Of a stretch of DNA of 64,000 nucleotides, positions 1 through 36,264 are shown piece by piece. The notes below the pieces were generated by a model. That model did not search any database and was not told the origin of the DNA. It worked only from the letters and a program-made list of their open reading frames with translations. The DNA comes from Eledone cirrhosa. Lineage: Eukaryota. The position numbers and the translations under genes are program-made. The stretch spans positions 21,886,001 to 21,950,000 of the forward strand of contig OZ024748.1 of the NCBI GenBank assembly GCA_964016885.1, in the 5' to 3' direction. How positions within the stretch are numbered: the stretch's first letter is position 1; each line of letters begins with the position of its first letter.

Positions 1-216
1 CGAAAGACTTATGATAAACTATATATATGTGTTTGTGTCTATATTGTATCTGTATTATTTTTGACCGTCGGTCAGTCAATGGCAACATTGAGGCCCGAGT
101 AAGTTAGATTACCGATATAAAAGACACAGAAGCGAAAAGCGAAAACCAACTAAACAGTGAGTGTGTTCTGTTATTAATTCTGGCAATATTACACAAATAT
201 GACCCTCCCCAAGTAT

Positions 217-29756: not shown

Positions 29757-30444
29757 GATGTGTTGAGTGTGTTTGTTCTTGAATTTATCTTTCGTGAACT
29801 TGATGTAATTCCTCTCATTAAGATCTTCAGATGATACCTTGGACGTAGTATGGTCAAATGGTTAAAACGTTTGCTTTGCTACCATTAAGTGTTAGGTTCA
29901 ATCCCCCTTCTTGGTATCTTGGACAAGTGTCACTTACGCTGGCCACGGGCTGAGTGAAACTGGGGAGATAGAAACTTAACTGTTAGCTGTTTTCTTCTTA
30001 TTGCTCGTGTGAACATTTTAGTTTTTCTACACCAACAAATATACAGTAACGTACATTATTCAATAATGTACATTTTCAGGGCATTGGATAAGCAGAATCT
30101 TTTGAGCGTCCGATAAAATATCATTGCGGTATTTGTTCTAGCTCTTTACTTTCTGAGTTCAAATCCCATCAAAGTTAACTTTACCTTTCGTCCACACGGG
30201 GTCGATATAATCAACTTTGTTTTCCCTCTAAATTTGCTGGCTTTTCTGCCTGAATTAGAAATCAATATGGTGGATTGGCAGTATCGGTAGAGGGTCGGAT
30301 GCCACGCTTTGCAGCAAAGAGTTACGGCCCTTGCCATTCTGAGTTCAAATCCCGCCGAGGTTAACTTTGCCTTTCATCCTTACGATAAAATAAAGTACCA
30401 GTAATGCACTGGGATAATTGTTGGCCTTGTGCCAAAAGTAGAAA

Positions 30445-31790
30445 CACCAACCTCATTTACAGGGAGTGATGGGTGCTTTTTATCCGTGGCGCCTACACGA
30501 CGACTTTACAGTGTGGGCTGGGGGCTGGGTTCTTTTTTTGTCGTGACACCTCCACGACTATTTTGCAGTGGGAGGGGGTGGGGGCATATTGTCTATATGC
30601 TTTGTATCCGTGGGAAGTCAGGTCTTCTGTATTACTGCGTGACGTCAGAGGTCACGTTCCTGTGTCATCGTCTTTGAGAGGTGCAATTGGGTAAGGTCGG
30701 CTTTAATTGCCCCATCCCAGGTCTTCTTGGGCCCCCCTCCACTCCAAAGCTTCCATCGACTTTTCTTTTTATGCAGCTGTCATCCTTCGTACGCATCACA
30801 TGTCCATACCAACACAATCTCCTCTCCTACACATAACATTAGATTCCTCTTATGCTTAGTCTCTTAATTTGTTTATACTTTGCCATTCGCGTATATTACT
30901 ATTACACATCTATCGGAGCATGTAAGCTTCGTTTCTTTCTAATCTACGGAAGTCTTCTACACAGCGTCCAGGTTTCACTACCATGTAACATTGCTGTTCG
31001 TACGCATGCATCATAGTCTGCCTTTCATTTTGAGGGAAAAGCCTTTTGCAGCTAGCAGTGACAGTAGCTCTTGAACATCTTTCATCCCATTCTTACTCTG
31101 GTTACTGTACTTTCAGAACACCCACCCCCGCTGCTAATTCGGTCACCTATATAGCTAAAGCTGTCTACTGTTTCTACAGAGCCCTCCCAGAGTTTGGTGG
31201 TGCTTGTTTTCTGTGGCTGTTTGCTGCTTGTTGTCCCGGTGGAGGACTTAGTCTTTATCAGATTGACTTTGAGACCCTGCTTCCATACAAGGTCATGATG
31301 CAAACACCCAATCTCAGGGCGGTACATGCCCCACCCTCTCGTTCTCCTACCTGCCCCCACTCATCACCTTAGCATAGTCCGATGAGAAAGGAGACCGGCA
31401 AATCATCATCATCATCATCATCATTTTACATCAGCTTTTCCCTGCTTGCAAGGGCGGGACGGGTCCTATTCAACATAGCATCTCTCCATTCGTCACAGAC
31501 CTTCATCATCTCCTCCGTGAGCTTCAGCGATCTGAGGTCAGCTCTCACCACTTCCGCCCATGATTTGTGTGGTCTTCTTTCCACTGGGATTTTTTTAGCA
31601 TTTCTTCACCCAGCGGTCATCCTCCATGCGTATCACATGTCCACACCAATGCAGTCTTCTCTCCCGCACATTACAGCTTATCCCTCTTATACACAGTTTC
31701 TCTCTCAACTCGTCTATGCACATTGACATTACACATCCAATGGAGCATGCTTGCTTCATTTCTCTCCAACCGTCGCCCATGTCTCACTAC
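30445..31790 (-). mobile_element. Two adjacent degenerate RTE LINE 3' fragments
   Basis: VETVDSFSYIGDRISSGGGCSES and [37 protein letters not shown]. (GAT)n tail at about 31403-31423. Homologous to 34432-36264 and 49790-53027. Confidence 0.85.
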
Positions 31791-31989
31791 CATATATATA
31801 TATATACAATCATAAGTTTGGTGCAGCCTCTAACAAACGTACTGTCCTGATCACTTATAAACATACCCCCCCCCCCCCCCCCCCCCCCCCCCTCACTACC
31901 ATAGCACAGACCAATGAAAAAGGAGAACTTCATCTTGGAAACCTAACCACATCACCCACACGCCAGTATCGCTGACTGGAAAATAATTA

Positions 31990-32268
31990 TCAATATTCAA
32001 TTTGTTTACAAGCAAATAGCCTCATTATCCCATGCGTTTTAAATTACTAATGTCATCCTTTTGTTCGAGTGGTAGCAGAGAAAAACAATCTACAATTGTT
32101 TCAGGGTTATTGCCCCTTATCAAGATTGTGTATTTCTCTTTTCTGCTATACCCTGGAACTCTTGAGATTGTTTTTCTCTCTGCTACTGCTGGAACAAAAG
32201 GATGATGTTAGCTGTCTAGAACACATGGCATAATTAGGTTGTTTGCTTGCAAATGAATTGAATATTAT
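31990..32268. mobile_element. Head-to-head inverted pair of a hammerhead-bearing Penelope-like LTR fragment
   Basis: 31990-32090 is the reverse complement of 32166-32268. A third copy lies at 32572-32748. Confidence 0.75.
32086..32128 (-). ncRNA. Minimal hammerhead ribozyme motif, U3-A8 core variant
   Basis: CAATC-TTGATAA-GGGG-CAATAA-CCCT-GAAA-CAATTG-TA^GATTG. Stem I CAATC/GATTG, stem II GGGG/CCCT, palindromic CAATTG stem III, GUA site. Confidence 0.7.
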
Positions 32269-32425
32269 TAACATAATTATATTATTATTATCATTCACTC
32301 ACAAATGAATTTATGTATCTGCAATGTTAGGGCAAAAACAAATTTTGCTTTTAATTTTTGGCAAAGCCAGCTGTAAAATCACTCGGTATGCAAATTAGGC
32401 TAATCAGCCGATGTAAACTTTAGAG

Positions 32426-32551
32426 CAGGTGTGTCAAACATGCAGTCCGCACAAACGTTTTTACAGCGCAGCATGTTTTATCTTCATAAAATTAGTTGTC
32501 ATGTCTGGCCCTCAGACAACACATATGTGACCCCTCAGTTTGACATGCCTG
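32426..32551. mobile_element. hAT (Charlie-like) MITE
   Basis: TIRs CAGGTGTGTCAAAC...GTTTGACATGCCTG and a perfect 8-bp TSD CTTTAGAG (32418-32425, 32552-32559). Confidence 0.9.
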
Positions 32552-32612
32552 CTTTAGAGAATACTATATATTCTCAAGAGTTCCAGGGTGTAGCAGAAGG
32601 GAGAGAAATACA

Positions 32613-32655
32613 CAGTCTTGATAAGGGGCAATAACCCTGAAACAATTGTAGATTG
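32613..32655 (+). ncRNA. Minimal hammerhead ribozyme motif, U3-A8 variant, second copy
   Basis: CAGTC-TTGATAA-GGGGCAATAACCCT-GAAA-CAATTG-TA^GATTG. The single stem I change gives a G-U pair. Confidence 0.68.
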
Positions 32656-32939
32656 TTATTCTCTCTACTATTGCTGGAACAAAAGGGTAACATTGTCATC
32701 TAGAACGCATGACGTATTGAGGCTGTTTGCTTGCAAATGAATCAAATAATAATTGTTTCTACTTTTGGCACAAGGCCAGCAATTACTCAGTACATTACTG
32801 GTACTTTATTTTATCGACCCCGTAAGGATGACCTCGGCGGGATTTGAACTCAGACCGTAAAGGGACGTAACTATGCTAGAATAATATCATAATTGACACA
32901 TGAATGCATTTACATATCTGCCATGTTAGAGCGAAAACG

Positions 32940-32994
<55 letters not shown>

Positions 32995-33459
32995 AAAAAA
33001 AAAATAATGGAGCTTCAACAATGTTTTCTACAATTTGTTTATTTGTCATTTCCTCCATGAAGTTCAGCAATTTTAGATCTGCTCTCCAAACCTCTGTCCA
33101 AGTTTTTCTTGGACTTTCCAAACTGAAGCTCCCTTCTACTAGGAGCTCATGAAACCTTTTCACGACACTGCCAATGGAGCTCTACTTCCTGCTTCTGGTG
33201 ATATGTGCACACAAAATGTTACTTATTCATGGTTGAGAACCAGGTCTGATGAATGTAAAAAGCATAACCATATGCTAGGGGGCCAACAGAGCTCTTGAAA
33301 GCCACACAGAAGTAACAACAAAACTTGTTACTATGTTGTGTCAGAAGTTTGAACATCTTAGCATCAACAAAATTATAATAAACTGCAAAGGCGTTCAGTA
33401 CACTCTGTAGAAGGAAGCAAATTTCAAATGGACAAATAAATGATGAAAACAAACTATAT

Positions 33460-33548
33460 TTTGGTTACATGTATTATTTTTATTGATATAAAAGAGAAAT
33501 TGGTCAGTTGCTGCTGAACTACTGGTTGGTGAAATTTTCTTCTTGTTC
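33460..33548 (-). other. DAD1: Probable non-coding terminal exon 3 of DAD1
   Basis: Strong acceptor tttttcattcttctttttatag| at 33549 and AATAAA at 33479-33484. Pairs with the donor TTG|GTGAGT at 36758. Confidence 0.6.
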
Positions 33549-34431
33549 CTATAAAAAGAAGAATGAAAAATATATTTAAATAGAAAAATTTTATTATAAT
33601 TTATTTGTAAATATTACACGAGAACATATGCATAGACAATAATGAAATTTTATTTTTCCATTTTTTCTGCTTTTTACTGTTTAATGAGAGAGAAGAGTAA
33701 GAGTTATGACTTTTCAGGGCCTCCAAGATGGCTGGAAGAGAAGGAAAAAGCTACCCTGAAACAGGAGACCTAGTTTAAATGCTTGCAACTAAGTATATGC
33801 TACTCAAGATACCCCTGTACTAGGTAGTGGTGGTAAACTGGGCAACAATTAAGTCTACCACCCAAGGAGACCATAGCAGTATTTGAACTCAGAACGTTAA
33901 GAGAAATATCATCTCATCTGGTGCTCAAATAATTCTGCTAGGATTGGTAACAATATTGTAACAATATTGTATTATGATGTATGTAATAGAATTACTAGAA
34001 TAAATATTGATCTTTAATAAAGTGATAAATCAAACTCTTGTTTCCTCTTTTTGATTTCCTGTTAAGTTTATTTTTTTTACTGGTTTCAGTTATTACTATG
34101 GCCTTGCTAGAGCACCATATATACACTTTTAATTATTATTGTCACATAAAACAAACAAACATTACTTATAAACATTAATTCTTTATAGTTTACCAAAATT
34201 ACACAATTACAATGATTATAATATTAAATCTAAACATTCTGTAATGATTTAGCAGAAAATATACAAAAATGGGTTTGTTATTTCAAACGTTTATAATATC
34301 TTTACTAATGGATATTGTTGCAAAATGTTGCTAAAGTAAAGACTTTAATTTTCAATGTGATGCAATAATAGTGCTGTTTTGTACTTTTCAAGAATGTCTT
34401 GTTAATGTGGTTTCATGTGGTACAGGATGTT

Positions 34432-36264
34432 AACAGTTAACATGCAGTTAACCAGGTAATACTAGAAGGTGTCATACCAAAAGATTGGTGCAGTAGCATC
34501 ATTGTCAACTGCTACAAAGGTAAAGGTGATGCACTAGATAGAGGAAACTATAGAGGTATAAAGCTGATGGACCAGGTCATGAAAGTAACAGAAAGAGTTA
34601 TAGCACAGTTGATTAGGGACCGGGTGAAAATAGACGAGATGCAATTTGAGTTTGTACCAGGAAGAGGCACCACTGATGCCCTCTTCCTTGTGAGGCAGCT
34701 ACAGGAAAAGTACCTAGCTAAAAGTAAGCCACTCTACTTGGCATTTGTTGACCTTGAGAAAGCCTTTGACAGAGTTCCACGTGCTGTAATCTGGTGGGCT
34801 CTTAGAAAACTAGGAGTAGATGAATGGCTTGTGAAAGCGGTACAAGCCATGTATAGGGGAGCAGTCAGCAAAGTTAGGATTAGCAATGAGTATAGCGAGG
34901 AATTTAGCGTACAGGTTGGGGTCCACCAGGGCTCTGTTCTTAGCCCCCTCCTGTTCATCATAGTCCTGCAGGCAATAACGGAGGAGTTTAAGACCGGATG
35001 CCCATGGGAACTCCTGTATGCTGATGACCTCGCACTTATAGCTGAATCTATGGTAGAACTAGAGAAGAAATTCCAAACTTGGAAGCAGGGACTAGAAAGA
35101 AAGGGTCTCAAAGTCAACATGACAAAGACTAAGGTCCTTGTAAGTAGACGAGAAAACAGAACCCAGATCCCCTCAGCGAAATGGCCTTGCTCAGTATGTA
35201 GGAAAGGTGTAGGTAGGAACTCCATTCTCTGCCCCAAATGCAAACAGTGGGTACACAAGAGATGTAGCGGGATCTCAGGAAGCTTAATTAAGAATGTAAG
35301 CTTCACATGCAGCAGCAAACAGCCACAGGAAACAAGTACCACCAATCTCTGGGAGGGCTCTGTAGAAACAGTAGACAGCTTCTGCTACCTAGGTGACCGA
35401 ATTAGCAGCGGAGGTGGGTGTTCAGAAAGTACAATAACTAGGGTAAGAACGGGATGAAAGAAGTTTAGGGAACTACTACCACTGCTAGCTGCAAAAGGCT
35501 TCTCCCTCAGAATGAAAGGCAGACTGTATGATGCGTGTATCCGAACAGCGATGTTGCATGGTAGTGAGACCTGGGCGCTGAAGGTGGAAGACTTACGTAG
35601 ATTAGAGAGAAACGAAGTCTGCATGCTCCGATGGATGTGTAACAGTAATATACGTGAACGACAAAGCATAAATGAATTGAGAGAGAGACTGAGCATAAGA
35701 GGAATCAAATGCTGTGTGCAGGAGAAGCGGTTGCGCTGGTATGGACATGTGATGCATATGAAGGATGACAGCTGCATAAAAAGGTGCAGAGCACTAGAAG
35801 TCGATGGAAACCGCGTAGTGGGGAGACCCAAGATGACCTGGGATGAGGTGATAAAAGCCGACCTTACCCAATTACATCTCTCAAAGCCAATGACACACGA
35901 CCGTGACCTCTGGCGTCACGCAGTAATACAGAGTACCCGACCTCCCATGGGTACAAGCTGAAGCATATAGACAATATGCCCCCACATTCCCCACCGCAAG
36001 GTGGTCGTGGAGGTGCCACGGCAAAAAAGCACCCAGCCCACACTGTAAAGTGGACGTGTAGGCGCCACGAAAAAGCACCCAGCACTCACTGTAAATGAGG
36101 TTGGTGTTAGGAAGGGCATCCAGCTGTAGAAATCAAGCCAAATCAGTTCCTGTATGAGCAAGGCATGGTCAGCCGACCAGACACTGCCCACAACAGGAAA
36201 ACCCGTCTAACCCATGCTAGCGTGGAAGAACGGACGTAAAACGGTAATGATGATGATGATGATG
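34432..36264 (+). mobile_element. 5'-truncated RTE-clade LINE, antisense in DAD1 intron 2
   Basis: RT motifs [27 protein letters not shown]. ORFs 34567-35457 and 35512-35961 are in one frame, separated by a single TGG>TGA. Cys-rich PHD-like insert. (GAT)n tail. Confidence 0.93.

What the first reader, a model, noticed from the sequence alone, without database searches (positions are those of the whole stretch)
31990..32748. Variant (U3-A8) hammerhead ribozyme whose predicted cleavage site is exactly the start of a neighbouring insert
Seen: three copies of one element. Two (32086-32128 minus, 32613-32655 plus) contain stem I-UUGAUAA-stem II-GAAA-CAAUUG-UA^-stem I', so the usual C3/G8 are jointly replaced by U3/A8. 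The third copy (32166-32268) begins at GATTG, the first bases after the predicted GUA cleavage site, and lies head-to-head with the first. Established: Penelope-like element LTRs carry minimal type I hammerheads with palindromic stem III that can cleave as dimers, and positions 3 and 8 form a base pair that tolerates covariation. Inference: the ribozyme was active, and its 3' cleavage product was the RNA copied into the genome.
Basis: partly seen in the sequence, partly recalled or inferred. Interest (0 to 1): 0.75.

Follow-up and report, generated by a model that had tools for sequence, protein, structure and literature searches.

The report
Hammerhead-carrying mini-retroelement with Penelope-type insertions
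This is one old insertion of a 351-base non-coding repeat that carries a hammerhead-ribozyme motif of an already described variant type and was likely spread by Penelope retrotransposon enzymes; its start at the predicted cut site is likely chance, because most copies examined run straight through that site.

Summary
The hammerhead motif is real. In 91 aligned copies U3 and A8 are each kept in 88, stems I and II show compensatory changes, and two sister families carry the canonical CUGANGA core at the same place. The U3-A8 core is already published, also in Penelope-like elements (PLEs). The 'three copies' are one insertion of a 351-nt tandem, non-coding element: an inverted 5' piece plus about 1.5 forward units, later split by a MITE and a SINE. 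The family shows PLE insertion hallmarks: ragged 5' ends, adjacent inverted pieces (46 of 110), and 3' ends piled at +148 and +188. 94 of 110 anchored copies read through the cut site, and 5' ends at it are not significantly enriched (P about 0.3 without the window copy). A young sister family with 14,248 hits has no peak either (5 of 88 breakpoints at +1; mean 5.9 per position). The window junction is itself ambiguous over 0 to +3. Best reading: a non-LTR retrozyme moved by PLE enzymes from a template with an intact site, likely a re-ligated circle. Activity is untested; no autonomous partner was found.

The parts
31982..32167 (-). 5' inverted piece of the insertion (unit position -71 to -79, through the hammerhead, to about +110)
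   Evidence: 87% to family consensus
32086..32128 (-). U3-A8 minimal type I hammerhead motif; predicted cut between 32091 and 32090
32165..32167 (.). 3-nt overlap (AGA) shared by the inverted and forward pieces; makes the forward start ambiguous from 0 to +3
   Evidence: read against consensus
   Evidence: 89% to consensus
32426..32551 (.). later insertion: 126-nt MITE with 14-nt terminal inverted repeats (12 of 14 match) and 8-bp target duplication CTTTAGAG (32418-32425 and 32552-32559); hAT-like by recalled knowledge
   Evidence: 90% to consensus
32580..32680 (+). predicted long extension of stem I: 5' arm pairs with the first ~30 nt after the cut site
   Evidence: fold; -32.4 kcal/mol for 32576-32690, z -3.2 against 100 shuffles
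32613..32655 (+). U3-A8 minimal type I hammerhead motif; predicted cut between 32650 and 32651
32754..32872 (.). later insertion: abundant SINE-like repeat (25 hits in the window) in the element's AT-rich stretch
32877..32938 (+). 3' end of the forward insert, second cycle +113 to +174, running into a (GT)n(GA)n microsatellite; no target duplication seen

Best explanation
The stretch is one old insertion of a 351-nt, non-coding, tandemly repeated element with a U3-A8 minimal hammerhead motif, likely a non-LTR retrozyme that was likely copied by the enzymes of a Penelope-like element from an RNA in which the predicted cut site was intact. Shown: the unit length, the motif and its covarying stems, the read-through of the site in most copies, 3' ends at +148 and +188, ragged 5' ends and adjacent inverted pieces. 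Inferred: multimeric transcripts self-cleave as dimers through the palindromic ACAAUUGU stem III; monomers are ligated to circles by a host ligase; a PLE RT-endonuclease nicks AT-rich or microsatellite DNA on both strands and starts reverse transcription internally at +148 or +188; two such cDNAs joined head-to-head through a few bases of microhomology give the inverted-plus-forward layout. The start of the window's forward piece near the cut site is likely an ordinary 5' truncation.
For: Unit and layout. Structure: alignment A1, 91 rows; pair 41/84 AU 58, GC 13, GU 8; pair 53/65 GC 35, AU 29, GU 12; 89.4% of cells paired against 37-46% for slid controls; 0 of 500 shuffles reach the covariation score. 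Position 17 switches A 42 / C 38 / U 9 / G 2. Sister families (63-66% alike) have canonical CUGAUGA or CUGACGA at the homologous place. PLE signature: 24 of 110 3' ends at +144..151 and 20 at +179..194, 46 of 110 with an inverted piece within 15 nt, matching the 30-40 bp tail, partial tandems and inverted 5' copies described in PMC8557442 and the two internal RT starts and two-strand nicking in PMC11167929. GIY-YIG/RT-type ORFs are abundant in the genome (10,595 candidates). Intact template: 94 of 110 read through. A sister-family locus holds 7 forward and 2 inverted units; the 6 full forward units differ by 0-3 bases in about 422, as rolling-circle copying would give. Circular 350-390 nt type I retrozymes are documented in a mussel (PMC7229834).
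Against: No cleavage, ligation or RNA was observed. A circle and an uncleaved multimer give the same DNA record. In the Anolis PLE, unprocessed RNA was the dominant substrate and ribozyme mutants inserted normally in vitro (PMC11167929); minimal PLE hammerheads cleaved weakly (PMC4209133); 8 of 9 Xenopus dimers did not cleave (bioRxiv 2026.07.22.740005). No autonomous partner sharing the sequence was found in 42 GIY-YIG loci of 10,595 candidates. The covariation is subfamily-level (few events), and shuffle control (a) ignores relatedness. Within the family 3-8 never covaries. 5' ends are somewhat denser at +5..+9 (10 pieces in that 5-nt bin against 1-8 in the bins from -100 to +19).
Confidence: 0.55

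Rival explanations
1. Same element and same PLE enzymes, but the template is an uncleaved multimeric transcript of a tandem array; the ribozyme is weak or acts at another step and no circle is needed.
For: Read-through of the site in most copies; tandem arrays exist; unprocessed RNA is the main substrate for the Anolis PLE; low in vitro activity of minimal hammerheads.
Against: Stems, core and cleavage triplet were kept through several subfamily replacements, which implies selection on cleavage at some step; near-identical 7-unit insertions fit a circle more simply.
Confidence: 0.27
2. One reading: the ribozyme cut the RNA and the linear 3' product, starting at GAUUG, was the template of the window's forward insert (and of a minority of other copies).
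For: The window start fits 0..+3. Three other pieces start at +1: L273 and L282 and the inverted piece of L303 (found outside the defined samples). 5' ends are somewhat denser just downstream of the site than just upstream. One 22-nt foreign insert sits at the cut site in L303.
Against: Without the window copy, 3 of 30 ends fall in -1..+3 of the range -60..+15 (P 0.32) and 2 of 14 in the filtered sample (P 0.22-0.54). One of those 3 (L140) is a hairpin-homology junction. The same insert carries an uncut second ribozyme. Sister family B: 5 of 88 at +1, mean 5.9 (called by hand; P 0.71).
Confidence: 0.1
3. The copies are 5'-truncated ends (solo pseudo-LTRs) of an autonomous, ORF-bearing PLE that was not found, not an independent non-coding element.
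For: PLE insertion hallmarks; most genomic minimal hammerheads are thought to be truncated PLEs (PMC4209133).
Against: Every copy that extends far enough upstream re-enters the same 351-nt unit (up to about 3 units, L038); none was seen to run into coding sequence; a 2.27-kb spaced pair proved to be a segmental duplication without ORF.
Confidence: 0.08

Closest known systems
Non-LTR retrozymes of animals (Cervera and de la Pena 2020, PMC7229834; Li, Clavereau and Pollet 2026, bioRxiv 2026.07.22.740005)
   Same: Non-coding unit of 351 nt, low GC, one type I hammerhead per unit, monomers to multimers, co-occurring with PLEs.
   Different: Minimal U3-A8 core instead of CUGANGA; this family is mostly old, dispersed, truncated 0.3-1.5-unit insertions with PLE-type inversions and tail; circular RNA not shown here.
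Minimal hammerheads of PLE pseudo-LTRs, including the U3-A8 variant of Schistosoma mansoni Cercyon (about 1,300 hits; PMC4209133)
   Same: Same core change, short stem I at the core, palindromic stem III suited to dimers.
   Different: Stem II is 4 bp with no extra base between 9 and 10.1; stem I is predicted to extend about 30 bp; no ORF linked.
Natural U3-A8 hammerheads (Perreault et al. 2011, PMC3088659)
   Same: C3-G8 replaced by U3-A8; the paper says such ribozymes were already shown active in vitro.
   Different: Here fixed in a whole eukaryotic repeat family with canonical-core sister families in the same genome.
EN+ Penelope-like elements (PAc of Anolis, PMC11167929; structure summary in PMC8557442)
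   Same: 5' truncation, partial tandems, adjacent inverted 5' copy, two 3' ends 30-40 nt apart downstream of the ribozyme, AT-rich or microsatellite targets, no copies piling at the cut site.
   Different: No RT or GIY-YIG ORF; non-autonomous.

Membership tests
Type I hammerhead ribozyme | Core C3UGANG8A9 / G12AAA15.1 / U16.1H17, or a tolerated 3-8 covariant | tested here: met
   U3 88, U4 75, G5 81, A6 89, A8 88, A9 81, G12 71, A13 87, A14 89, A15.1 87, U16.1 87, H17 89 of 91
Type I hammerhead ribozyme | Stems I and II with compensatory changes; stem III or a palindrome allowing a dimer | tested here: met
   dimer cofold pairs the palindromes
Type I hammerhead ribozyme | Match to an Rfam hammerhead model | tested here: not met
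   no hammerhead family among 7 matches at E<=10 in 30000-35000; none among the 150 of 367 rows shown, which included canonical-core loci, so the models appear insensitive to these minimal forms
Type I hammerhead ribozyme | Self-cleavage after H17 | not testable with these tools
   needs in vitro assay
Non-LTR retrozyme | Non-coding repeat unit of about 150-400 nt with one type I hammerhead per unit | tested here: met
   351-nt unit
Non-LTR retrozyme | Two or more consecutive units with hammerheads | tested here: met
   L035, L036, L038 and others, several with decayed cores; 7-unit array in sister family B
Non-LTR retrozyme | Expressed as linear and circular monomer RNA | not testable with these tools
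   no RNA holder listed
Autonomous Penelope-like element | RT plus GIY-YIG ORF between pseudo-LTRs | tested here: not met
   upstream sequence re-enters the same unit; no ORF in L159
PLE-mobilised (non-autonomous) element | 5' truncation, partial tandem, adjacent inverted 5' copy, 30-40 nt optional tail, no clear target duplication | tested here: met
   against PMC8557442
PLE-mobilised (non-autonomous) element | Sequence shared with the pseudo-LTR of an autonomous PLE | tested here: inconclusive
   none in 42 GIY-YIG loci examined of 10,595 candidates

The most novel reading that the evidence does not exclude
A superfamily of short retrozymes in this genome, including a very young member with over 14,000 copies, is spread by Penelope enzymes rolling round ribozyme-made RNA circles. 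Within it one lineage switched its core from C3-G8 to U3-A8, and a subfamily then grew a full intramolecular stem III by 7-nt palindrome expansions, moving from dimer-only to monomer cleavage. That would give direct genomic proof of PLE mobilisation of retrozymes and a natural series for testing what PLE hammerheads do.
Probability: 0.35. Interest if true: 0.6.

Novelty: new member of a known kind. Interest (0 to 1): 0.36.

Why it matters
The role of hammerheads in Penelope-like elements and the identity of the enzyme that moves animal retrozymes are open (PMC7229834 and bioRxiv 2026.07.22.740005 propose PLEs; PMC8557442 calls the function unclear). This family adds insertion-structure evidence for PLE mobilisation and a negative result: linear cleavage products are not the main template. 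It also supplies matched natural variants (C3-G8 or U3-A8; one, two or three palindrome units in stem III) for simple in vitro tests. The headline claim of the finding does not hold and the core variant is known, so interest is moderate.

Tried and rejected
Rfam scans: no hammerhead match seen; microsatellite-driven miRNA hits only. RNA evidence: no RNA holder listed; laying the one run's contigs was dominated by repeats and told nothing about ends. Earlier findings of the scan: none. Autonomous partner: the pair of motifs 2.27 kb apart is a 98% segmental duplication without ORF; the sister-family copies near PLE ORFs in L199, L200 and L201 look like independent insertions, since the monomer query hit no such segment in L191, L192, L195 or L198 of the same PLE family. 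Automatic boundary calls were unreliable in places: the window copy was called -16 because the 5' arm's reverse complement resembles the ribozyme; internal deletions and stem III duplications gave false ends (L084, L115, L118, L122, L149). The apparent pile of 5' ends at -254..-227 is partly SINE interruption of the AT-rich stretch. Three of the first 100 matches (L262, L264, L265) are another repeat and were dropped; 12 of the first 100 were internal deletions and were dropped. C6 locus L303, first scored as a +1 start, is a read-through copy with a 22-nt insert. Single-strand MFE folding of the monomer does not give the active core, as expected for a dimer-type motif. Literature: searches 'retrozyme'+'octopus' and 'octopus'+'Penelope'+'hammerhead' listed no paper whose title or abstract start describes such a family; subscription journals, Repbase and Dfam were not searchable, and supplements (for example of PMC4209133, PMC8557442) were not read and may list it.

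Full report
Observation. The third segment begins with GATTG at 32166, but 32165-32167 fit both neighbouring pieces, so its start lies between position 0 and +3 of the cut. Positions below are counted from the predicted cut (+1 = first base after it).

What the element is. DNA searches of the window's own 3-Gb genome gave 1,129 and 1,433 first-look candidates (lower bounds). A consensus from the top-scoring loci gives a 351-nt unit from cut to cut. Copies long enough to pass one unit re-enter the same unit, up to about three units (L038); none was seen to run into coding sequence. In the window the pieces are one insertion: an inverted piece 31982-32167, then a forward run +1..+260, a 126-nt MITE with an 8-bp target duplication, +253..+351 and +1..+104, a SINE, and +113..+174 ending at a microsatellite. 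The pieces are 87-90% like the consensus, so the insertion is old.

Is it a hammerhead? I aligned 91 of the 140 ribozyme regions collected (chosen by hand from the list: mostly those of standard length, leaving out most long stem III forms and most second pieces of a locus). U3 and A8 are each present in 88 of 91 and C3-G8 in none; position 17 is A 42, C 38, U 9, G 2. Stem I pair 41/84 is AU 58, GC 13, GU 8 and stem II pair 53/65 is GC 35, AU 29, GU 12; 89.4% of cells pair against 37-46% when partners are slid; 0 of 500 shuffles reach the covariation score (that control ignores relatedness, and the changes are a few subfamily events). The majority stem II closes with canonical G10.1-C11.1; the window's U11.1 occurs in 28 of 91. 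Two sister families, 63-66% alike and sharing the upstream ATGCAAAT motif and downstream blocks, have canonical CUGAUGA or CUGACGA at the same place, so U3-A8 is a double change within one lineage. The variant is published: Perreault 2011 (PMC3088659, passages) and the Schistosoma Cercyon PLE (PMC4209133, parts 1-2 of 4 read).

Test of the cleavage-product claim. A 17-mer at +24..+40 has 207 exact hits. I analysed 110 distinct matches: the first 100 listed plus matches in loci already held. 94 extend 5 nt or more upstream of the cut; 5' ends spread from -682 to +24, with 5-6 in the 0..+9 bin against 5-6 in each 10-nt bin from -60 to -31. In -60..+15, 3 of 30 ends other than the window's lie at -1..+3 (P 0.32; 0.14 with the window). 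A second pattern anchored at +11 gave 228 hits; of the first 100, 3 were another repeat, 87 of 97 read through and none started cleanly at +1 (read by eye). A filtered search (46 hits) gave 15 true ends over -4..+11, three at +1 including the window (P 0.22-0.54 without it). One more +1 start turned up outside these samples (L303 inverted piece). Over all pieces in L001-L159 the +5..+9 bin is the fullest near the site (10 of 197), which may reflect stalling in the long stem I, T-run microhomology, or some cleavage with trimming; I cannot separate these. The young sister family B has 14,248 exact hits; 94 of the first 100 read through, and among the first 100 of 131 hits filtered for breaks, 12 were internal deletions and the 88 ends fell -6:7, -5:3, -4:22, -3:6, -2:6, -1:3, 0:4, +1:5, +2:6, +3:0, +4:6, +5:2, +6:7, +7:5, +8:6 (called by hand; the -4 pile lies in the palindrome and likely reflects microhomology). 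There is no peak at the cut.

How it likely moves. 3' ends pile at +144..151 (24 of 110) and +179..194 (20), modes 148 and 188; many shorter ends are SINE interruptions or lie in the AT-rich stretch; 46 of 110 have an inverted piece within 15 nt of the 5' end. These are the partial tandem, inverted 5' copy and 30-40 bp tail described for PLEs (PMC8557442, passages). The Anolis PLE protein nicks both strands of AT-rich DNA and starts reverse transcription at two internal sites downstream of its ribozyme, and no reads were found at the cut (PMC11167929, parts 1-2 of 4). The genome holds many GIY-YIG ORFs with a Neptune-like cysteine linker (the clade label is recalled), one family with its own canonical minimal hammerhead, but none of 42 loci shares this element's sequence. 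Since the site is intact in the copies, the template was a re-ligated circle or an uncleaved multimer. I favour the circle: structure was kept through subfamily turnover, a family B locus holds 7 forward and 2 inverted units differing by 0-3 bases, and 350-390 nt retrozyme circles are known in a mussel (PMC7229834, passages). Against it, minimal hammerheads cleave poorly in vitro and 8 of 9 Xenopus dimers did not cleave (bioRxiv 2026.07.22.740005, parts 1 and 3 of 5 read). No RNA data were available.

Extra feature. Of 146 family A ribozymes scanned, 15 carry about +7 nt and 10 carry +14 nt in stem III, as repeats of CAATTGT that keep the GUC triplet. These could form a 5-6 bp intramolecular stem III and so cleave as monomers (inference). 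Simple slippage in a near-repeat is the alternative, and MFE folds of two decayed examples gave competing hairpins.

Verdict. A real hammerhead of a known variant in a new retrozyme-type family with PLE insertion hallmarks; the headline coincidence is most likely chance. Lunse et al. 2017 on dimeric PLE hammerheads was not retrieved (recalled; one search showed only papers that hold its title words). The host looks like a cephalopod from recalled repeat features; no call names it.

Noticed in passing
L311 (G000:C1:9967500-9973000); genome-wide: Sister family B, period about 424 nt, canonical core, 14,248 exact hits of one 17-mer; near-identical tandem arrays with an inverted 5' part suggest very recent activity. 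Best candidate for RNA and cleavage tests.
   Followed up: partly
L232-L261: Sister family C, period about 438 nt, CUGAUGA core, 2,451 candidates; most copies listed have G at position 17, which is usually non-cleaving.
   Followed up: partly
L072, L079, L100, L113, L144, L145, L287 and others: Family A subfamily with +7 and +14 nt CAATTGT expansions in stem III (25 of 146) that may allow monomer cleavage.
   Followed up: partly
L303 (G000:C6:15262400-15263500): A 22-nt foreign insert lies at the predicted cut (0/+1, 1-nt ambiguity), the only insert of 8 nt or more among 11 in 169 copies that is not a local duplication or self piece; the same locus has an inverted piece starting at +1. Found through a filter that favours anomalies near the site, so anecdotal; could reflect RNA-level ligation.
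   Followed up: partly
window 32388-32395 and families A, B, C: An ATGCAAAT octamer-like motif about 125 nt and a TATA-like run about 85 nt upstream of the cut are shared across the three families; possible internal promoter.
   Followed up: no
window 32754-32872; L063, L073, L076, L096, L119, L123, L131, L132, L154 and others: The same SINE interrupts the element's AT-rich stretch at about +104..107 in 11 of 110 copies, and in the opposite orientation in others: strong target preference for AATAAT.
   Followed up: partly
window 32426-32551: 126-nt MITE with CAGG ends and 8-bp target duplication; single copy in the window.
   Followed up: partly
L193, L194, L197: PLE family with RT and GIY-YIG ORF and a canonical minimal hammerhead (CUGAAGA, palindrome AAGUACUU) about 400 nt after the stop codon.
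   Followed up: no
L009/L040, L140, L298: Inversion junctions that appear to use the element's own stem I or stem II complementarity as homology.
   Followed up: partly
window 30774-30990 and 31611-31796: Two 76-83% alike copies that look like LINE 3' ends on the minus strand, next to the insertion.
   Followed up: no
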